Shown: one piece after another, positions 36,388 through 40,010 of the stretch | How the letters are laid out: every line of letters begins with the position of its first letter | Numbering within the stretch: position 1 is the stretch's first letter | Sequence record: ON113172.1 | Reading direction: 5' to 3' (one strand) | Length of the DNA: 57,457 nucleotides | From: Enterococcus phage vB_OCPT_SDS2 | Program-made: the position numbers and the translations under genes | The notes under the pieces: generated by a model | What the model was told of the DNA's origin: nothing | Databases searched by the model: none | What the model saw: only the letters and a program-made list of their open reading frames with translations

Positions 36388-36479
36388 AATAATCTCTCCT
36401 CTATCTCTTTGATGAATTAATCATACCACGTATTGAAAGTTTTGTCAAGGACTTTTTAACAAAAAAAGAACAGCCGTTA

Positions 36480-37200
36480 AGCTGCTCTAATCGAAAGGAG
36501 GTGATTCTTTATGAAAGAGGTTTTTAGAAGAGCTGATAAACAGCCAATGCCACGGAGCGGAATCGAACCGCTTCTCTAAGCTTCTCCATGAGCGTGGCCG
36601 CTGGTAGCCAACTCCAGCTTCCGAAGACTTCACTAGGGAGCTACTCTGGACTTCTTGGCTAATGCGCTGTTGGTGACCTCCCTACAGGCCTTGGTTAACA
36701 GCGTGCATTAATGTTCAACCCTTTCATAAGGTGGCTGGACACCTTGTCGTACGACGCTCTCCTAAGTGGATTACTCCACCATGGGTAATGTTTTGGCCAA
36801 GGCGCTTACCTCGCCTTCCATCACGAGTGTAGCTAGTTTTAGCTGAGGACTGCTACTGCCCTCCTATGAATCACATGTAGCTCCGCTCCTAGTCGTTAAG
36901 CACGCTACGGAATAAGCTTTACAGCAAAGGATTATTGAGCGTTCCCTTTACCAACCCTCCATGGTACACTTCCAGACGCTGTCCGAAGTGCTTTTCGGGA
37001 AGTATGTAAGGCGCCAGTAGAGGATTCGAACCTCTTTCCCAATCAGCCTCCGACAAGCGCTATAGGAAGACTGTTGTGCATTAACCTAAACTATGCTAAC
37101 TGACTGGTTAGGGATGTCGGGCGAGGCTTTGGTGAGTAGCTAGCTCTCCTTTGCAGTCGGGGACTTCCCTTATGTAACAGCAGATAAGAAATCCATCTTA
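36480..37200 (-). other. ORF-free, GC-elevated structured region. It has two tRNA-like T-arm/acceptor modules with minus-strand 3' ends near 36548 and 37010, a D-arm-like hairpin GCTGG-AGTTGGCTA-CCAGC, and many nested hairpins. No complete cloverleaf could be resolved by hand.
   Basis: - Plus-strand GGAATCGAACC at 36561-36571.
- Plus-strand GGATTCGAACC at 37022-37032, which is the reverse complement of GGTTCGA(A/T)TCC.
- Acceptor-like 3' strands follow each T-arm.
- The canonical D-loop sequence AGUUGG is present. Confidence 0.35.
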
Positions 37201-37214
37201 CCTACTTTATGGAA

Positions 37215-37340
37215 TTATTTACGTTTACTTTTGGCACGCATTTTAGCAAGGCGCTCCATCTTCTTCTTAGCAGCTTCCTGCTCAGCTTTCACAATGGCAC
37301 GGTTCCAAGCTTTCTCACTTTTCATACTTTCAGTAGTCAT
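37215..37340 (-). CDS. 41-aa lysine-rich basic protein (MTTESMKSEKAWNRAIVKAEQEAAKKKMERLAKMRAKSKRK)
   Basis: GGAGG RBS 8 nt upstream. The longer track ORF (to 37490) overlaps the tRNA and was rejected. Confidence 0.45.
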   Translation of the reverse strand: MTTESMKSEKAWNRAIVKAEQEAAKKKMERLAKMRAKSKRK

Positions 37341-37369
37341 TCCACAAACCTCCATAAGACTTATTTGAA

Positions 37370-37440
37370 CACGCTGTGAAGGAGTCGAACCCTCTCTAAT
37401 GGTTTTGGAGACCATTGTGCAGCCGTTACACTTACAACGC
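37370..37440 (-). tRNA. trnW: tRNA-Trp (anticodon CCA), 71 nt, CCA not encoded
   Basis: Hand-folded:
- 7-bp acceptor stem (GCGUUGU/ACAGCGU, 2 G.U).
- D-stem GUGU/GCAC with GG in the loop.
- Anticodon stem AUGGU/ACCAU, loop CU-CCA-AA.
- T-stem GAGGG/CCUUC with loop TTCGACT.
- Discriminator G. Confidence 0.65.
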
Positions 37441-37678
37441 ATGAACGAGGCAGTCGTCACCGCCTCTGCTACGCCCTCTCCTGCCCTCAAGGGTGGGTAC
37501 TCCTGCTATTGTTTTTACTGCCTATTACAGCAGCCCACAGGCGGGAGCAATCTGTAGCCCTAGACCGCTATAGCCGAGAAGCATCTCGAACTATGTTACG
37601 ACAAACCGTAGTAATGCCGCCTTACATATAATACTATAGCATATTTTAAAGCCTTTGTCAAGCGTTTTTGAACACTTT

Positions 37679-38754: not shown

Positions 38755-39615
38755 TTAGAAATCGATTCCTGAAGGGTCTACTGTACAAACTTCATCAGCG
38801 CCATTGTTAGTGGCAGCTGGTGCAGCTGTAGGTAAGTTTGGTAAACGAGTTGTGTCGAAACCAATTTTCTTCAAGTCTTCAATTTGGCGTTCAACAGAGC
38901 TTTCAAAGATTGCGTTCTCGAAATCTTCTTCAGGGACTGTAGCGCCTTCTGTAGCTTTGAACACTTCTAATTCTTCAGGCGTTAAGTCTTCGTCGTCTAA
39001 AGGTGTGAAAGTGTAACGGTTAGCCGCTTCGCAAGTAATCTCGAAGGCTTTCTTAGGGAATTTCTTAGCGTTAGTTTCTTTTGATAAGAAGTTCGTTAAG
39101 GCGTCAATGTTGGCATTGTCACGGCCTAAGTTAGTTTCTAATAAGATTGGCTCGCCAGCAGGGTAAGTGTTAGTTTTCTTAGTTCCTTGCGTGAAGTCTG
39201 CTAAAGGAATTACACCGAATAAGATAAGTGGTTTTGGAGTTAAGATACGAGCTGCTTTATAAGAGTCTTTATCAGCTTGTGAACCACGTTCGATTTCCCC
39301 TGATTCAACTTTAGCACGGTGGTCTGCTAACATGATTTCAGTTGCTTCATGATACAAGTCACGCACGTCTGTACGTCCTTCTGCATGGTATGATAATGTT
39401 GGTAACACTTGCGGTTCAAACACTGAAACGACTTGGTTAACGTGTAAGTTTTCTAAAGTATCTACAGGAATGCGTGCACGAATGCTTTGACCTTTTTTAA
39501 GATAAGTCTTTTTAGACTGCTCTCCTGAACCTTTTGATTGTGCTTGTGCTGCCTGTGCGATTGCTTCTAAACCTTTAGCCATAATTAATTTCCTCCTAAT
39601 AAGTTCTTTATTCAT
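38755..39615 (-). CDS. putative ssDNA-binding / annealing protein (SSB-like acidic C-terminal tip ..DPSGIDF)
   Basis: 286 aa. The C-terminal acidic D-(I/F)-x-F tip resembles SSB interaction tails. It has its own TTGACT-N17-TATACT promoter at about 39645-39673. Confidence 0.3.
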   Translation of the reverse strand: MNKELIRRKLIMAKGLEAIAQAAQAQSKGSGEQSKKTYLKKGQSIRARIPVDTLENLHVNQVVSVFEPQVLPTLSYHAEGRTDVRDLYHEATEIMLADHRAKVESGEIERGSQADKDSYKAARILTPKPLILFGVIPLADFTQGTKKTNTYPAGEPILLETNLGRDNANIDALTNFLSKETNAKKFPKKAFEITCEAANRYTFTPLDDEDLTPEELEVFKATEGATVPEEDFENAIFESSVERQIEDLKKIGFDTTRLPNLPTAAPAATNNGADEVCTVDPSGIDF

Positions 39616-39760
39616 CTTTACTACTTCATTAGTATAGCATATTATAAAGTATAAGTCAAGCCTTTTTGAACATTTGTTAAAGTTTATTATTACAGTTTTG
39701 TTACAATTGTTTCAACAACCTTACAATTAACGACTCCACAAAAGTTCTTGTGTAAAATCG

Positions 39761-39789
39761 CTTGACAAAAAATGGTAATTTTAGTATAC
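39761..39789 (+). promoter_or_regulatory. plus-strand promoter TTGACA-N17-TATACT driving an ORF-less transcript
   Basis: Read directly. Confidence 0.55.
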
Positions 39790-39795
39790 TGGTCT

Positions 39796-40010
39796 TAGGG
39801 GTCTTAAAGAGAGAAATAGAAGTTTACTAAAGAGTTTCACAACCGACTTTAGGAGGTTGTAGCTGAGTGTTAACGAAGCTGCTCTTGAACTTAAAGACCG
39901 TAAGGTCTTATGGTTTAAGGATAGCTATAGCATATAGTATAGGGGAAAGGCGTTCGGAAAGTTCCCTCACAGCCTAAAGACTCCTTTCAGTCGCCTTTGA
40001 AACTTTTTCG
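39796..40010 (+). ncRNA. candidate small RNA of about 210 nt. It runs from the promoter to a long hairpin (AAAGGCG...CGCCTTT) followed by a T-run. It contains a perfect hairpin AAGACC-GUAA-GGUCUU.
   Basis: There is no ATG ORF. The only candidate is a GTG-initiated 36 codons after a GGAGG. Confidence 0.3.

What the first reader, a model, noticed from the sequence alone, without database searches (positions are those of the whole stretch)
36480..37640. tRNA-Trp plus an unexplained 0.7-kb structured non-coding block with partial tRNA-like modules
- A clean tRNA-Trp(CCA) folds at 37370-37440 on the minus strand.
- Immediately downstream, 36480-37200 has no ORF, a higher GC content than the genome, and dense nested hairpins.
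- It carries two more T-arm plus acceptor 3'-strand modules (GGTTCGATTCC and GGTTCGAATCC on the minus strand) and a canonical D-arm hairpin (AGUUGG loop).
- I could not close a standard cloverleaf around any of these. The 5' acceptor partners are missing or misplaced: one unit is a 51-nt minihelix-like element, the other would need 99 nt.
- These could be degenerate tRNAs, tRNA-like recognition elements such as an RNase P processing handle, a permuted or intron-containing tRNA, or a novel structured RNA.
Basis: seen in the sequence. Interest (0 to 1): 0.6.

Follow-up and report, generated by a model that had tools for sequence, protein, structure and literature searches.

The report
Large structured phage RNA with tRNA-like modules
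Next to a normal tRNA-Trp gene, this Enterococcus phage carries a conserved, unannotated non-coding RNA of about 750 bases that folds extensively, contains two tRNA-shaped pieces that cannot decode, and matches no described RNA family.

Summary
The window is a Saphexavirus-type Enterococcus phage.

On the minus strand, one promoter-to-terminator unit (37661-36460) contains, in order:
- a 185-nt leader
- a canonical tRNA-Trp
- a ~750-nt ORF-free, GC-rich block

The block is present and unannotated in about 100 Saphexavirus genomes. It folds into about 26 helices: 98% of cells are paired, and 18 pairs changed on both sides against 1-5 in register-shifted controls. Conserved cores alternate with swapped peripheral hairpins.

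It has two tRNA-like modules:
- **TL1 (37105-37011)** is tRNA-shaped, with acceptor, D and T arms, but a ~37-nt arm replaces the anticodon arm. It is the only part shared with Kochikohdavirus myophages.
- **TL2 (36598-36548)** is an acceptor/T-arm minihelix preceded by a D-arm-like hairpin.

The 3' tail carries AUCACCUCCUUUC, identical to the Bacillus-type 16S anti-Shine-Dalgarno end.

Rfam finds no GOLLD, ROOL, tmRNA or intron match. It is not a plain tRNA cluster.

Best reading: a new family of large phage non-coding RNA in a tRNA operon, analogous to GOLLD and ROOL. Host tRNA-processing enzymes probably handle the tRNA-like modules. Expression, processing and function are untested.

The parts
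37633..37661 (-). Sigma-70-type promoter: TTGACA, 17-nt spacer, TG-n-TATAGT. Start of the transcription unit.
   Evidence: 11 of 12 consensus positions with an extended -10. The sequence is conserved in relatives. It is a consensus match only; transcription was not measured.
37442..37625 (-). Non-coding leader module of about 185 nt, upstream of tRNA-Trp.
   Evidence: It is conserved in SSsP-1, Toy, IME-EF1 and SE, partly conserved in BC-611, and absent in phage 47. Minimum free energy is -73.7 kcal/mol, z = -2.2. No Rfam match.
37369..37441 (-). Canonical tRNA-Trp(CCA), with no encoded 3' CCA.
   Evidence: ARAGORN. Rfam RF00005 scores 49 bits against a threshold of 29.
37215..37340 (-). Small basic ORF of 41 aa (MTTESMKSEKAWNRAIVKAEQEAAKKKMERLAKMRAKSKRK), with GGAGG 8 nt upstream of the ATG.
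   Evidence: The ORF is intact at the same length in 13 relatives, and residues 8-41 are nearly invariant. phrog_13247, E = 3e-26, function unknown. No Pfam match.
37179..37206 (-). Invariant 11-bp hairpin starting 9 nt after the ORF stop codon, with no U-tract after it.
   Evidence: Helix 1: 11 pairs identical in all 25 sequences, two of them G-U. There is no covariation, so the support is thermodynamic only.
37110..37170 (-). 5' domain: nested helices enclosing a hairpin (37149-37131) whose 7-nt loop C/U-UAGCUA contains the palindrome UAGCUA.
   Evidence: Helices 2-4 contain 3 pairs changed on both sides. The hairpin stem is GGAGAG/CUCACC here and GUGUUAA/UUAACAC in BC-611 and EF_RCK, while the loop core is invariant.
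37011..37105 (-). TL1, a tRNA-shaped module without an anticodon arm. Parts: acceptor GUCAGU/ACUGGC; U8 A9; D arm GCAU-AGUUUAGGUUA-AUGC (37096-37078); a ~37-nt arm (37076-37040) in place of the anticodon and variable arms; T arm AGAGG-UUCGAAU-CCUCU (37035-37019).
   Evidence: The Rfam tRNA model scores 21.6 bits, below the threshold of 29. ARAGORN does not call it here, but calls the EF24C homologue a 97-nt 'tRNA-???'. In the alignment across the two phage families, three acceptor pairs and one D-stem pair (within Saphexavirus, in BC-611 and KEN17) are changed on both sides and kept. Mean pairwise identity is 97% in 25 Saphexavirus sequences. It is the only sub-block shared with Kochikohdavirus.
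36657..37009 (-). Central multi-helix domain. Parts: closing helix 37009-37006 with 36922-36919; swappable hairpin 36999-36955; conserved hairpin 36952-36923; branched helix 36917-36880; hairpin 36863-36845; a lineage-specific insert around 36820-36724; long hairpin 36720-36657.
   Evidence: Helices 9-17 contain 8 pairs changed on both sides. In helix 17, pairs G-C/G-U swap to G-U/G-C in relatives. Conserved cores average 91-94% identity and variable inserts 56-61%.
36622..36655 (-). Nearly invariant segment GAAGUC-N-AGAGUAGCUCCCUAGUGAAGUCUUC, including a third UAGCU. Its pairing is unresolved: it is either a local hairpin or a long-range helix with the 3' tail.
   Evidence: Helices 18-19 do not vary. 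The alternative pairing with 36518-36501 came from the global consensus fold. The register of that pairing was worked out by hand. Neither version is proven.
36600..36618 (-). D-arm-like hairpin GCUGG-AGUUGGCUA-CCAGC, one nucleotide upstream of the TL2 acceptor.
   Evidence: Helix 20: C-G becomes U-A in 5 sequences. The loop is almost invariant (one G-to-U in PG9).
36548..36598 (-). TL2, an acceptor/T-arm minihelix. Parts: GCCACG(C)/(C)CGUGGC; T arm AGCGG-UUCGAUU-CCGCU; discriminator A; no CCA. In most relatives a 45-110-nt hairpin is inserted between the acceptor 5' strand and the T arm.
   Evidence: Helix 21: 4 of 7 pairs changed on both sides (GCCACG/CGUGGC, GCCUUAU/AUAAGGC, GCCUUAC/GUAAGGC). 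The inserted hairpin also covaries, ACAGAA/UUCUGU against ACAUAA/UUAUGU (helix 22). There is no tRNA or tmRNA call.
36531..36545 (-). Small hairpin GGCUG-UUUAU-CAGCU that begins the 3' tail.
   Evidence: Helix 24: 100% paired, with one one-sided change.
36493..36522 (-). CU-rich tail predicted to be mostly single-stranded, with ACCUCUUUCAUAA (36521-36509) and AUCACCUCCUUUC (36505-36493). The second motif equals 13 nt of the Bacillus-type 16S rRNA 3' end. ACCUCCUUUC is invariant in all 25 sequences.
   Evidence: The 16S tail sequence GAUCACCUCCUUUCU is quoted in PMC5427494. On the plus strand the motif reads as a ribosome-binding site, but it is followed only by non-conserved mini-ORFs of 5-22 aa (read).
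36460..36488 (-). Intrinsic terminator (9-bp stem plus U7) that ends the unit. The next promoter is at 36448-36420.
   Evidence: Helix 26: 100% paired, with one-sided changes.

Best explanation
**What it is.** The block at 37206-36460 (minus strand) is a previously undescribed, Saphexavirus-wide, multi-domain structured non-coding RNA of about 750 nt. It appears to be transcribed from a sigma-70-type promoter as the 3' two-thirds of a ~1.2-kb operon: leader, tRNA-Trp, 41-aa ORF, large RNA.

**Architecture.** Conserved helical cores carry interchangeable peripheral hairpins. Two tRNA-like modules are built in:
- TL1 keeps the acceptor, D and T arms, and therefore probably the tRNA elbow, but it has no anticodon loop and so cannot decode.
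- TL2 is an acceptor/T-arm minihelix. The D-arm-like hairpin just upstream may supply its D-loop partner.

**Most likely mechanism (inferred, not shown).**
- The host tRNA-maturation enzymes RNase P, RNase Z and CCA-adding enzyme recognise the roughly 12-bp acceptor/T-arm stacks of TL1 and TL2, as they do the neighbouring CCA-less tRNA-Trp.
- The modules would then act as punctuation and stabilising ends. Cleavage would define a 5' domain, a free TL1, a ~400-nt central RNA and an ~88-nt 3' tail.
- The tail has the layout of a Firmicute small regulatory RNA: a 5' hairpin, a CU-rich single strand with an anti-Shine-Dalgarno copy, and a terminator. It could pair with GGAGG ribosome-binding sites or with the GGAG-rich body of the RNA itself.

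**Overall.** In kind, this is a third, independent example of the large phage RNAs found at tRNA loci, alongside GOLLD and ROOL.
For: **Shown.**
- The unit is bounded by a consensus-matching promoter (not assayed) and a terminator.
- Only one canonical tRNA is present.
- The block occurs in about 100 Saphexavirus records, where it carries no tRNA or RNA-gene annotation; a few records overlay short hypothetical CDSs.
- 185 pairs in 26 helices are 98.1% paired. Eighteen pairs changed on both sides, against 1-5 when partners are slid by 1-3 columns. No shuffle of 500 reaches the observed value.
- About 22 consensus G-U pairs (tallied by hand), together with z = -3.5 on the minus strand against -1.5 on the plus strand, point to an RNA on the minus strand.
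- Conservation is a mosaic: cores average 91-98% identity, and swapped hairpins 56-74%.
- All three T-loop motifs in the 57-kb window fall in this unit.
- TL1's acceptor stem is compensated between two phage families.
- TL2's acceptor stem exists in three compensated versions.
- No match to any of 4227 Rfam families, apart from a sub-threshold tRNA hit on TL1.
- GOLLD and ROOL are described as phage RNAs near tRNA islands, with tRNAs sometimes inside GOLLD (PMC12286853; PMC5737381).
- A genuine ROOL sits beside the EF24C tRNA cluster that holds the TL1 homologue.

**Inferred from established knowledge (my own knowledge, not checked in a paper here).**
- RNase P, RNase Z and CCA-adding enzyme accept acceptor/T-arm minihelices.
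- In Firmicutes, CCA-less tRNA precursors are matured by RNase Z.
Against: - There are no expression or processing data for any Saphexavirus.
- The 25 sequences are close relatives (at least 82% identical to the window over aligned positions, with segments down to about 78% by blastn). The compensatory changes therefore trace to few independent events, some of which are whole-module swaps.
- The structure was derived from the same alignment on which it was scored, which favours it over the slid controls.
- Many helices never vary, including the TL1 long arm, the 5' hairpin and 36655-36622.
- A long-range helix between 36633-36619 and the tail (36518-36501) would make TL2 an internal junction element instead of a cleavable unit.
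- TL1 has an A-G mismatch at the top of its acceptor stem, and TL2 has a C-C mismatch at pair 7-66 in this phage.
- The family is confined to Enterococcus phages.
Confidence: 0.6

Rival explanations
1. An intact scaffold RNA that self-assembles. The ~750-nt RNA is not cut. It folds as one compact particle in which the T-loop and D-loop modules serve as tertiary-structure bricks. It oligomerises through palindromic loops, as ROOL, GOLLD and OLE form RNA-only complexes.
For: - The size, phage origin and position at a tRNA locus match GOLLD and ROOL.
- The invariant palindrome UAGCUA sits in a 7-nt hairpin loop at 37143-37137 and recurs at 36835-36830. A third UAGCU lies at 36643-36639. That is 3 UAGCU against 0.7 expected, P = 0.04.
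- AGCGCU lies in the TL1 long-arm loop.
- Possible long-range pairings tie the 5' domain, the 3' domain and the tail together.
Against: - All candidate long-range and loop-loop pairings are invariant, so no covariation supports them.
- Palindromic hexamers are common by chance.
- TL1 also exists as a stand-alone unit in a different surrounding sequence in Kochikohdavirus, which argues that it works autonomously.
- There is no similarity to the ROOL or GOLLD models.
Confidence: 0.2
2. A decaying tRNA cluster. TL1 and TL2 are tRNA pseudogenes, and the rest is spacer with no function of its own. Conservation only reflects the recent common ancestry of these phages.
For: - Relatives carry different sets of genuine tRNAs (Trp; Trp+Ser; Trp+Tyr+Ser; a 126-nt 'Lys'-like element) in the same operon. 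tRNA gain and loss is therefore ongoing.
- Overall divergence among the genomes is modest.
Against: - TL1 averages 97% pairwise identity, while the downstream genes are not even the same set among relatives.
- TL1's acceptor stem and TL2's acceptor stem are maintained by compensatory changes.
- The ~375-nt central region has no tRNA features yet contains 8 pairs changed on both sides.
- Indels fall at helix tips and replace hairpin with hairpin.
Confidence: 0.08
3. A translation-directed decoy. The RNA acts mainly on ribosomes or mRNAs. Its anti-Shine-Dalgarno copy sequesters ribosome-binding sites, or its many GGAG motifs titrate the 16S 3' end. The tRNA-like modules add ribosome or factor affinity.
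For: - AUCACCUCCUUUC is 13 of 13 identical to the Bacillus-type 16S 3' tail.
- ACCUCCUUUC is invariant in 25 genomes.
- GGAG occurs 11 times against 3.2 expected, with 0 of 2000 shuffles reaching that. This is 14.6 per kb against 5.5 per kb for the window's minus strand.
- Ribosome binding has been reported for GOLLD (PMC12286853).
Against: - Most GGAG motifs lie inside predicted helices.
- The anti-Shine-Dalgarno tract could simply pair with AAAGGAG at 37152-37146. That pairing holds in 23 of 25 sequences and is broken in the BC-611 group.
- A global blocker of ribosome-binding sites would also hit the phage's own mRNAs.
- The motif was noticed after the fact.
Confidence: 0.07
4. A DNA-level element, such as a replication origin or packaging site, whose hairpins matter in DNA and not in RNA.
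For: - The region is a GC-rich non-coding island.
- It lies just upstream of the replication module: the primase is at 35088-34144, and RecBCD-inhibitor genes are adjacent in relatives.
Against: - There are no direct or tandem repeats that could be iterons.
- The cumulative GC skew reaches its minimum near 38.4-38.7 kb (local skew changes sign near 39.7 kb), not at the block.
- The region is framed by a promoter and a terminator.
- About 12% of consensus pairs are G-U and would be A-C mismatches on the other strand (tallied by hand).
- Helix 17 is kept by G-C/G-U swaps, which only make sense in RNA.
Confidence: 0.05

Closest known systems
GOLLD RNA (Rfam RF01998)
   Same: It is a very large (often over 800 nt) structured non-coding RNA of phages and prophages, usually beside tRNA genes. 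tRNAs are sometimes embedded in a variable linker, and conserved and variable domains alternate (PMC12286853; PMC5737381).
   Different: There is no match to the Rfam GOLLD model even at E <= 10 on the isolated 761-nt block. The embedded modules here are non-decoding tRNA mimics, not real tRNAs. Oligomerisation is untested.
ROOL RNA (Rfam RF03087)
   Same: It is a ~580-nt ornate RNA of phages and Lactobacillales near tRNA islands. A genuine ROOL (265 bits) lies in Enterococcus phage EF24C, about 110 nt upstream of the tRNA cluster that contains the TL1 homologue.
   Different: No ROOL match in the window or in three Saphexavirus relatives. The consensus sequence and helices printed do not resemble this block. 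ROOL contains no tRNA-like modules.
Transfer RNA (RF00005), class II long-arm tRNAs
   Same: TL1 has a compensated acceptor stem, U8, a 4-bp D stem with a GG-containing loop, a 5-bp T stem with a UUCGAAU loop, and a length of about 95 nt.
   Different: - It has no 5-bp stem with a 7-nt anticodon loop in either phage lineage.
- The Rfam score is 21.6 bits, below the threshold of 29.
- ARAGORN does not call it here, and in EF24C assigns only a 4-base 'anticodon' with no amino acid.
- It is not visibly derived from the phage tRNA-Ser, Tyr or Leu genes.
tRNA-like processing modules in longer transcripts: the MALAT1 mascRNA element, tRNA-operon spacer RNAs such as 3'ETS-leuZ, and the stable species 1 and 2 RNAs of the phage T4 tRNA cluster (recalled from my own knowledge, not checked here)
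   Same: These are tRNA-shaped elements or tRNA neighbours that tRNA-maturation nucleases use to cut a longer RNA and release stable non-coding products. That is the mechanism proposed here for TL1 and TL2.
   Different: No cleavage data exist for this RNA. The known cases are much smaller or are eukaryotic. This is an analogy of mechanism, not of family.
tmRNA tRNA-like domain, including two-piece (permuted) tmRNAs
   Same: TL2 resembles it in having an acceptor stem plus T arm without an anticodon arm, with D-loop-like sequence supplied by an unusual connectivity.
   Different: ARAGORN finds no tmRNA. The Rfam tmRNA models match only the 17-31-nt T-arm segments, at 8.6-15.3 bits against thresholds of 70-84. 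There is no tag reading frame, no pseudoknot series and no encoded CCA.

Membership tests
tRNA (RF00005) | Covariance-model score at or above the curated threshold of 29 bits | tested here: not met
   TL1 scores 21.6 bits, E = 0.077, covering model positions 6-65 only. TL2 gets no hit. The neighbouring tRNA-Trp scores 49 bits.
tRNA (RF00005) | Anticodon arm with a 5-bp stem and a 7-nt loop containing U33 and an anticodon | tested here: not met
   The ~42 nt between the D and T arms form one long irregular arm in consensus and single-sequence folds. No register gives a conserved 5-bp stem with a 7-nt loop in both Saphexavirus and Kochikohdavirus copies.
tRNA (RF00005) | Acceptor, D and T arms with elbow-forming loops (GG in the D loop, UUCRANU in the T loop) | tested here: met
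   TL1: the acceptor has 3 pairs compensated between families, the D stem has 1 compensated pair, and the T arm is kept. TL2 has only the acceptor and T arms; a D-like hairpin lies upstream of its acceptor.
GOLLD RNA (RF01998) | Match to the conserved 3' domain of the family model | tested here: not met
   No GOLLD hit at E <= 10 with permissive filters on 1501 nt and on 761 nt. No hit at E <= 1 in three relatives.
GOLLD RNA (RF01998) | Large phage-encoded structured RNA adjacent to, or containing, tRNAs | tested here: met
   for this locus. The family description is in PMC12286853. This is a resemblance of context, not of sequence or structure.
ROOL RNA (RF03087) | Match to the family model (threshold 99.1 bits) | tested here: not met
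   No hit at E <= 10. As a positive control, the same search finds ROOL in EF24C at 264.8 bits.
ROOL / GOLLD | Homo-oligomeric RNA-only assembly (nanocage) | not testable with these tools
   This needs cryo-EM or hydrodynamic measurements. Only palindromic loop sequences were noted.
tmRNA | tRNA-like domain plus a tag-peptide reading frame and pseudoknots | tested here: not met
   ARAGORN finds no tmRNA. The Rfam tmRNA models align only to the T arms, at 8.6-15.3 bits.
Group I intron inside a tRNA gene | Match to intron models, and exons that join into a tRNA | tested here: not met
   No intron family at E <= 10. TL1's acceptor strands already enclose a complete ~95-nt unit.
Substrates of RNase P / RNase Z / CCA-adding enzyme | Cleavage or CCA addition at the acceptor/T-arm stack | not testable with these tools
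   Only the geometry can be read. TL1 has 6-7 acceptor positions plus 5 T-arm pairs. TL2 has 7 plus 5 positions here and 8 plus 5 in most relatives. Neither encodes CCA.

The most novel reading that the evidence does not exclude
This is the founding member of a new class of large phage RNAs that acts as an RNA machine or particle. A ~750-nt ornate RNA would display non-decoding tRNA mimics and a copy of the 16S anti-Shine-Dalgarno tail. It would either self-assemble like ROOL and GOLLD, or engage ribosomes and the tRNA-handling machinery to reprogram host translation or blunt tRNA-targeting defences. TL1 would be a mobile tRNA-decoy module exchanged between unrelated Enterococcus phages.
Probability: 0.25. 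Interest if true: 0.85.

Novelty: new variant of a known kind. Interest (0 to 1): 0.62.

Why it matters
Large, intricately folded bacterial and phage RNAs are rare. Each one found so far (RNase P, group I and II introns, tmRNA, OLE, GOLLD, ROOL) has exposed unusual biochemistry. The functions of GOLLD and ROOL are still unknown.

A third, unrelated large RNA in the same setting, a phage tRNA operon, strengthens the case that this association reflects function and not chance. It also offers an experimentally convenient system:
- Saphexaviruses are small, virulent and easy to grow.
- They are being developed for therapy against Enterococcus faecalis.
- More than 100 genomes leave this 0.75-kb region without any RNA-gene annotation; a few overlay short hypothetical CDSs.

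The non-decoding tRNA mimic shared by two unrelated Enterococcus phage families is a concrete candidate for a decoy or processing signal. That can be tested with standard RNase P, RNase Z and CCA-addition assays.

In practical terms, genome annotators are currently calling spurious short 'hypothetical proteins' over this RNA.

Tried and rejected
- **Rfam, four ways**. Only tRNA-Trp passes threshold. The weak hits (ncS025, ncr1241, AaHKsRNA82, cyano/beta tmRNA, SmY, CRISPR-DR25) cover the terminator, the T arms or AT-rich flanks. I rejected them as chance or partial-motif matches.
- **ROOL or GOLLD identity.** Rejected: no model match, although the same tool finds ROOL in EF24C.
- **More distant relatives.**
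  - IMG/VR pattern scan: 8 loci, all Enterococcus phages.
  - Metagenome scan: 24 loci. Only 2 are real, both Kochikohdavirus-like. The rest are chance 18-mer hits.
  - Genome scan: 5 loci, of which 4 are chance and 1 is a mislabelled Saphexavirus fragment.
  - The family could therefore not be extended, and covariation depth stays limited.
- **Profile searches of six sub-blocks against Kochikohdavirus loci**. Only TL1 is shared.
- **Derivation of TL1 from the phage tRNA-Ser, Tyr or Leu**. No convincing alignment outside the T arm.
- **All-against-all column covariation scans**. Lineage-linked co-variation swamps them, so single-pair signals were discarded and only stacked helices were kept.
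- **Global consensus fold**. It gave long-range helices (37152-37146 with 36500-36494; 37141-37134 with 36646-36639; 36633-36619 with 36518-36501) that are invariant or partly broken. These are reported as possibilities only.
- **Plus-strand coding for the ribosome-binding-site-like complement of the tail.** Rejected: the ORF is 22 aa here and 5-9 aa in relatives.
- **Iteron-type origin.** Rejected.
- **Literature searches** for a prior description or transcriptomes. Nothing relevant found.
- **Covariance models of my own.** Not built, because there was no additional sequence space to search with them.
Full report
**Identity of the window and layout of the locus**

The 1.5 kb around the finding is 96% identical to Enterococcus phage vB_OCPT_Toy. 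It is 80-95% identical to about 100 other Saphexavirus genomes, which are virulent Enterococcus siphophages of 55-59 kb.

All features lie on the minus strand, in this order:
- a near-consensus promoter at 37661-37633 (TTGACA, 17-nt spacer, TG-n-TATAGT)
- a 185-nt non-coding leader
- tRNA-Trp(CCA) at 37441-37369 (ARAGORN; Rfam 49 bits)
- a 41-aa ORF at 37340-37215 with a GGAGG ribosome-binding site
- about 750 nt without a conserved ORF
- an intrinsic terminator at 36488-36467, followed at once by the next promoter at 36448-36420

The coordinates given in the finding therefore cover almost exactly one transcription unit of about 1.2 kb.

**Check of the observation**

- The T-loop motif GGTTCRANTCC occurs three times in 57 kb. 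All three copies are on the minus strand inside this unit, against 0.13 expected.
- G+C rises to 0.48-0.51 from about 0.36-0.42.
- The minus-strand RNA folds to -248.9 kcal/mol with z = -3.5. The complementary strand gives only z = -1.5.
- ARAGORN and Rfam find no second tRNA.

Two corrections are needed. First, the block does not directly follow the tRNA: a real small gene lies in between. It belongs to phrog_13247 and is intact and 41 codons long in 13 relatives, with a nearly invariant C-terminal 33 residues. Second, the acceptor 5' strand of the '99-nt' unit is not missing (see TL1 below).

**Conservation and structure**

The 736-nt block alone matches 106 phage records. About 100 of these are Saphexavirus-type, and none annotates an RNA gene over the block. 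Several annotators placed short 'hypothetical proteins' across it.

I aligned 25 distinct copies. A consensus fold limited to a 140-nt pairing span gave 185 pairs in 26 helices. Scoring them on the alignment gave these results:
- 98.1% of cells form standard pairs.
- Eighteen pairs changed on both sides and remained paired, against 1-5 when the 3' partners are slid by 1-3 columns.
- None of 500 shuffles reaches the observed values for the paired fraction, the both-sides-changed counts or the covariation score; the count of further pair types was not above the shuffles.

Three cautions apply. The structure was derived from this same alignment. The sequences are close relatives. Some 'changes' are whole-hairpin swaps.

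The pattern is nevertheless what a functional RNA shows:
- Conserved cores average 91-98% pairwise identity. They alternate with segments at 56-74% where one hairpin is replaced by a different hairpin on a covarying base helix.
- About 22 consensus pairs are G-U by my hand tally.
- One helix (36690-36675) is kept by swapping G-C/G-U for G-U/G-C, which only works in RNA on this strand.

**TL1 (37105-37011)**

TL1 contains these elements:
- acceptor GUCAGU (37104-37099) pairing with ACUGGC (37018-37013)
- U8 and A9
- a D arm, GCAU-AGUUUAGGUUA-AUGC
- about 42 nt that form a long irregular arm
- a T arm, AGAGG-UUCGAAU-CCUCU

This is the only piece of the block that is also found outside Saphexavirus. 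An 82-nt core is about 80% identical in EF24C-like myophages of the genus Kochikohdavirus. There it sits alone between tRNA-Arg and tRNA-Leu. ARAGORN reports that copy as a 97-nt 'tRNA-???' with a four-base anticodon.

In the alignment across the two families, three acceptor pairs differ on both sides between the families and stay paired. One D-stem pair does the same within Saphexavirus, in BC-611 and KEN17. A 20-nt stretch of the long arm, CAUAGCGCUUGUCGGAGGCU, is shared by the Kochikohdavirus copies and BC-611 or KEN17. Its last 19 nt are identical in all copies of both families, including the window.

No register gives a conserved 5-bp stem with a 7-nt anticodon loop in both families. The Rfam tRNA model reaches only 21.6 bits. 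TL1 is therefore a tRNA body with its elbow elements intact but without a decoding end.

**TL2 (36598-36548) and the D-like hairpin (36618-36600)**

In this phage TL2 is a 51-nt acceptor/T-arm minihelix. Most relatives carry a 45-110-nt covarying hairpin between the acceptor 5' strand and the T arm.

The acceptor stem exists in three mutually compensated versions: GCCACG/CGUGGC, GCCUUAU/AUAAGGC and GCCUUAC/GUAAGGC. Four of its seven pairs changed on both sides.

The hairpin just upstream has an almost invariant D-loop-like loop, AGUUGGCUA (one G-to-U change in PG9), and a covarying stem. I infer that it can supply the D-loop partner for the TL2 T loop. That would give a tRNA-like elbow with non-tRNA connectivity. 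This is not a circular permutation of a cloverleaf, and it cannot be tested with these tools.

**The tail**

After TL2 come a small hairpin, about 40 nt of CU-rich sequence, and the terminator.

The CU-rich stretch includes AUCACCUCCUUUC at 36505-36493. This is identical to 13 nt of the Bacillus-type 16S rRNA 3' end, GAUCACCUCCUUUCU (PMC5427494). I assume, but did not verify, that Enterococcus has the same tail. The core ACCUCCUUUC is invariant in all 25 genomes.

The body of the RNA is enriched for GGAG: 11 copies against 3.2 expected, with 0 of 2000 shuffles reaching that. The tract could pair with AAAGGAG at 37152-37146, which holds in 23 of 25 sequences. It could also pair with ribosome-binding sites in trans. 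Neither is shown.

On the plus strand the motif reads as a ribosome-binding site, but only non-conserved 5-22-aa mini-ORFs follow it.

**What it is not**

- Rfam release 15, searched with permissive settings on the isolated block, gives no GOLLD, ROOL, tmRNA, intron, RNase P, T-box or riboswitch match. The same tool finds a 265-bit ROOL in EF24C.
- There are no direct or tandem repeats. The cumulative GC skew reaches its minimum about 1.3 kb upstream, and local skew changes sign near 39.7 kb. An iteron-type origin is therefore unlikely.
- Scans of IMG/VR, JGI metagenomes and one genome per bacterial species found only Enterococcus phages, plus chance hits.
- Full-text searches found no description of this RNA and no Saphexavirus transcriptome.

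**Interpretation**

Shown: a conserved, strand-specific, extensively base-paired non-coding region in a tRNA operon, with two non-decoding tRNA mimics, matching no described family.

Inferred:
- that it is expressed, from the promoter and terminator consensus only
- that host RNase P, RNase Z and CCA-adding enzyme act on TL1 and TL2, because these modules present acceptor/T-arm stacks of about 12 bp and lack an encoded CCA, like the adjacent tRNA-Trp
- that this cuts the precursor into stable pieces, including a tail shaped like a small regulatory RNA

The stand-alone occurrence of TL1 in another phage family favours autonomous, tRNA-like handling of that module. The main rival is an uncut scaffold or self-assembling RNA in the manner of ROOL and GOLLD. 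That would fit the palindromic loops and the candidate long-range pairings, but those lack covariation support.

In kind, the element belongs with GOLLD and ROOL as a large phage RNA at a tRNA locus (PMC12286853, PMC5737381). It fails the membership tests for both families. I therefore classify it as a new variant of a known kind.

**Confidence**

| Claim | Confidence |
|---|---|
| The block is a genuine conserved structured RNA element and not a plain tRNA cluster | about 0.85 |
| The specific processing mechanism | about 0.35-0.4 |
| The combined statement | 0.6 |

Noticed in passing
window 37442-37625 (minus strand): The 185-nt leader between the promoter and tRNA-Trp is itself a conserved non-coding module (minimum free energy z = -2.2). 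It is present in SSsP-1, Toy, IME-EF1 and SE, partly present in BC-611, and absent in phage 47, where the tRNA follows the promoter directly. No Rfam match.
   Followed up: partly
window 37215-37340 (minus strand): A conserved 41-aa, very basic, probably helical protein (phrog_13247, function unknown) is encoded between the tRNA and the large RNA in the same unit. It is a candidate RNA-binding partner.
   Followed up: partly
L002 1682-1807; L015 874-1045; L001 1933-2021: Saphexavirus relatives differ in the genuine tRNAs carried in this operon. Some add tRNA-Ser(UGA), some add tRNA-Tyr(GUA) plus Ser, and some carry a 126-nt tRNA-like element annotated 'tRNA-Lys' with a ~55-nt insertion (Rfam tRNA 38 bits). 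The large RNA is always present.
   Followed up: partly
L004 (Enterococcus phage EF24C) 265-841, 1352-1950, 2026-2745: EF24C has a genuine ROOL RNA (265 bits) just upstream of its tRNA cluster. The long spacers between its tRNAs are also unusually stable (z = -4.25 for 1352-1700, z = -2.0 for 2026-2745), so there may be further unannotated structured RNAs there.
   Followed up: partly
L058 = CP121462.1, 'Prescottella defluvii plasmid unnamed4' (24.8 kb): This record matches 688 nt of the window's tRNA operon at 92.7% identity and ends inside TL1. It looks like a Saphexavirus fragment, either contamination or a misassigned contig, and not an actinobacterial plasmid.
   Followed up: partly
phage records PP848412.1, PV874195.1, HE962497.1: Genomes labelled Escherichia phage vb_EcoB_G21-7, Enterobacter phage BHUENT5 and Streptococcus phage SP-QS1 carry this Enterococcus-phage operon at 87-90% identity. 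The host labels look doubtful.
   Followed up: no
window 36746-36755 (minus strand): A perfect 10-nt palindrome, GUCGUACGAC, lies inside the ~70-nt insert that only the window's sub-lineage carries (window, 47, Toy, SE, GiddyUp, VD13, PMBT56). It is flanked by hairpins with a GUAA loop and by AAGGUG/CACCUU.
   Followed up: no
window 36460-37215 (minus strand): GGAG is about 3.4-fold over-represented in the RNA: 11 copies, with 0 of 2000 shuffles reaching that. CCUCC occurs once, in the tail.
   Followed up: partly
one search hit list: Twenty Streptomyces phage records matched the 1.5-kb query. This is presumably through tRNA-Trp alone, because they disappear when only the block is searched.
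   Followed up: no
window about 39600-39900: G+C drops to 0.31 and GC skew changes sign here. This probably marks a switch of gene orientation or a divergent promoter or origin region.
   Followed up: no
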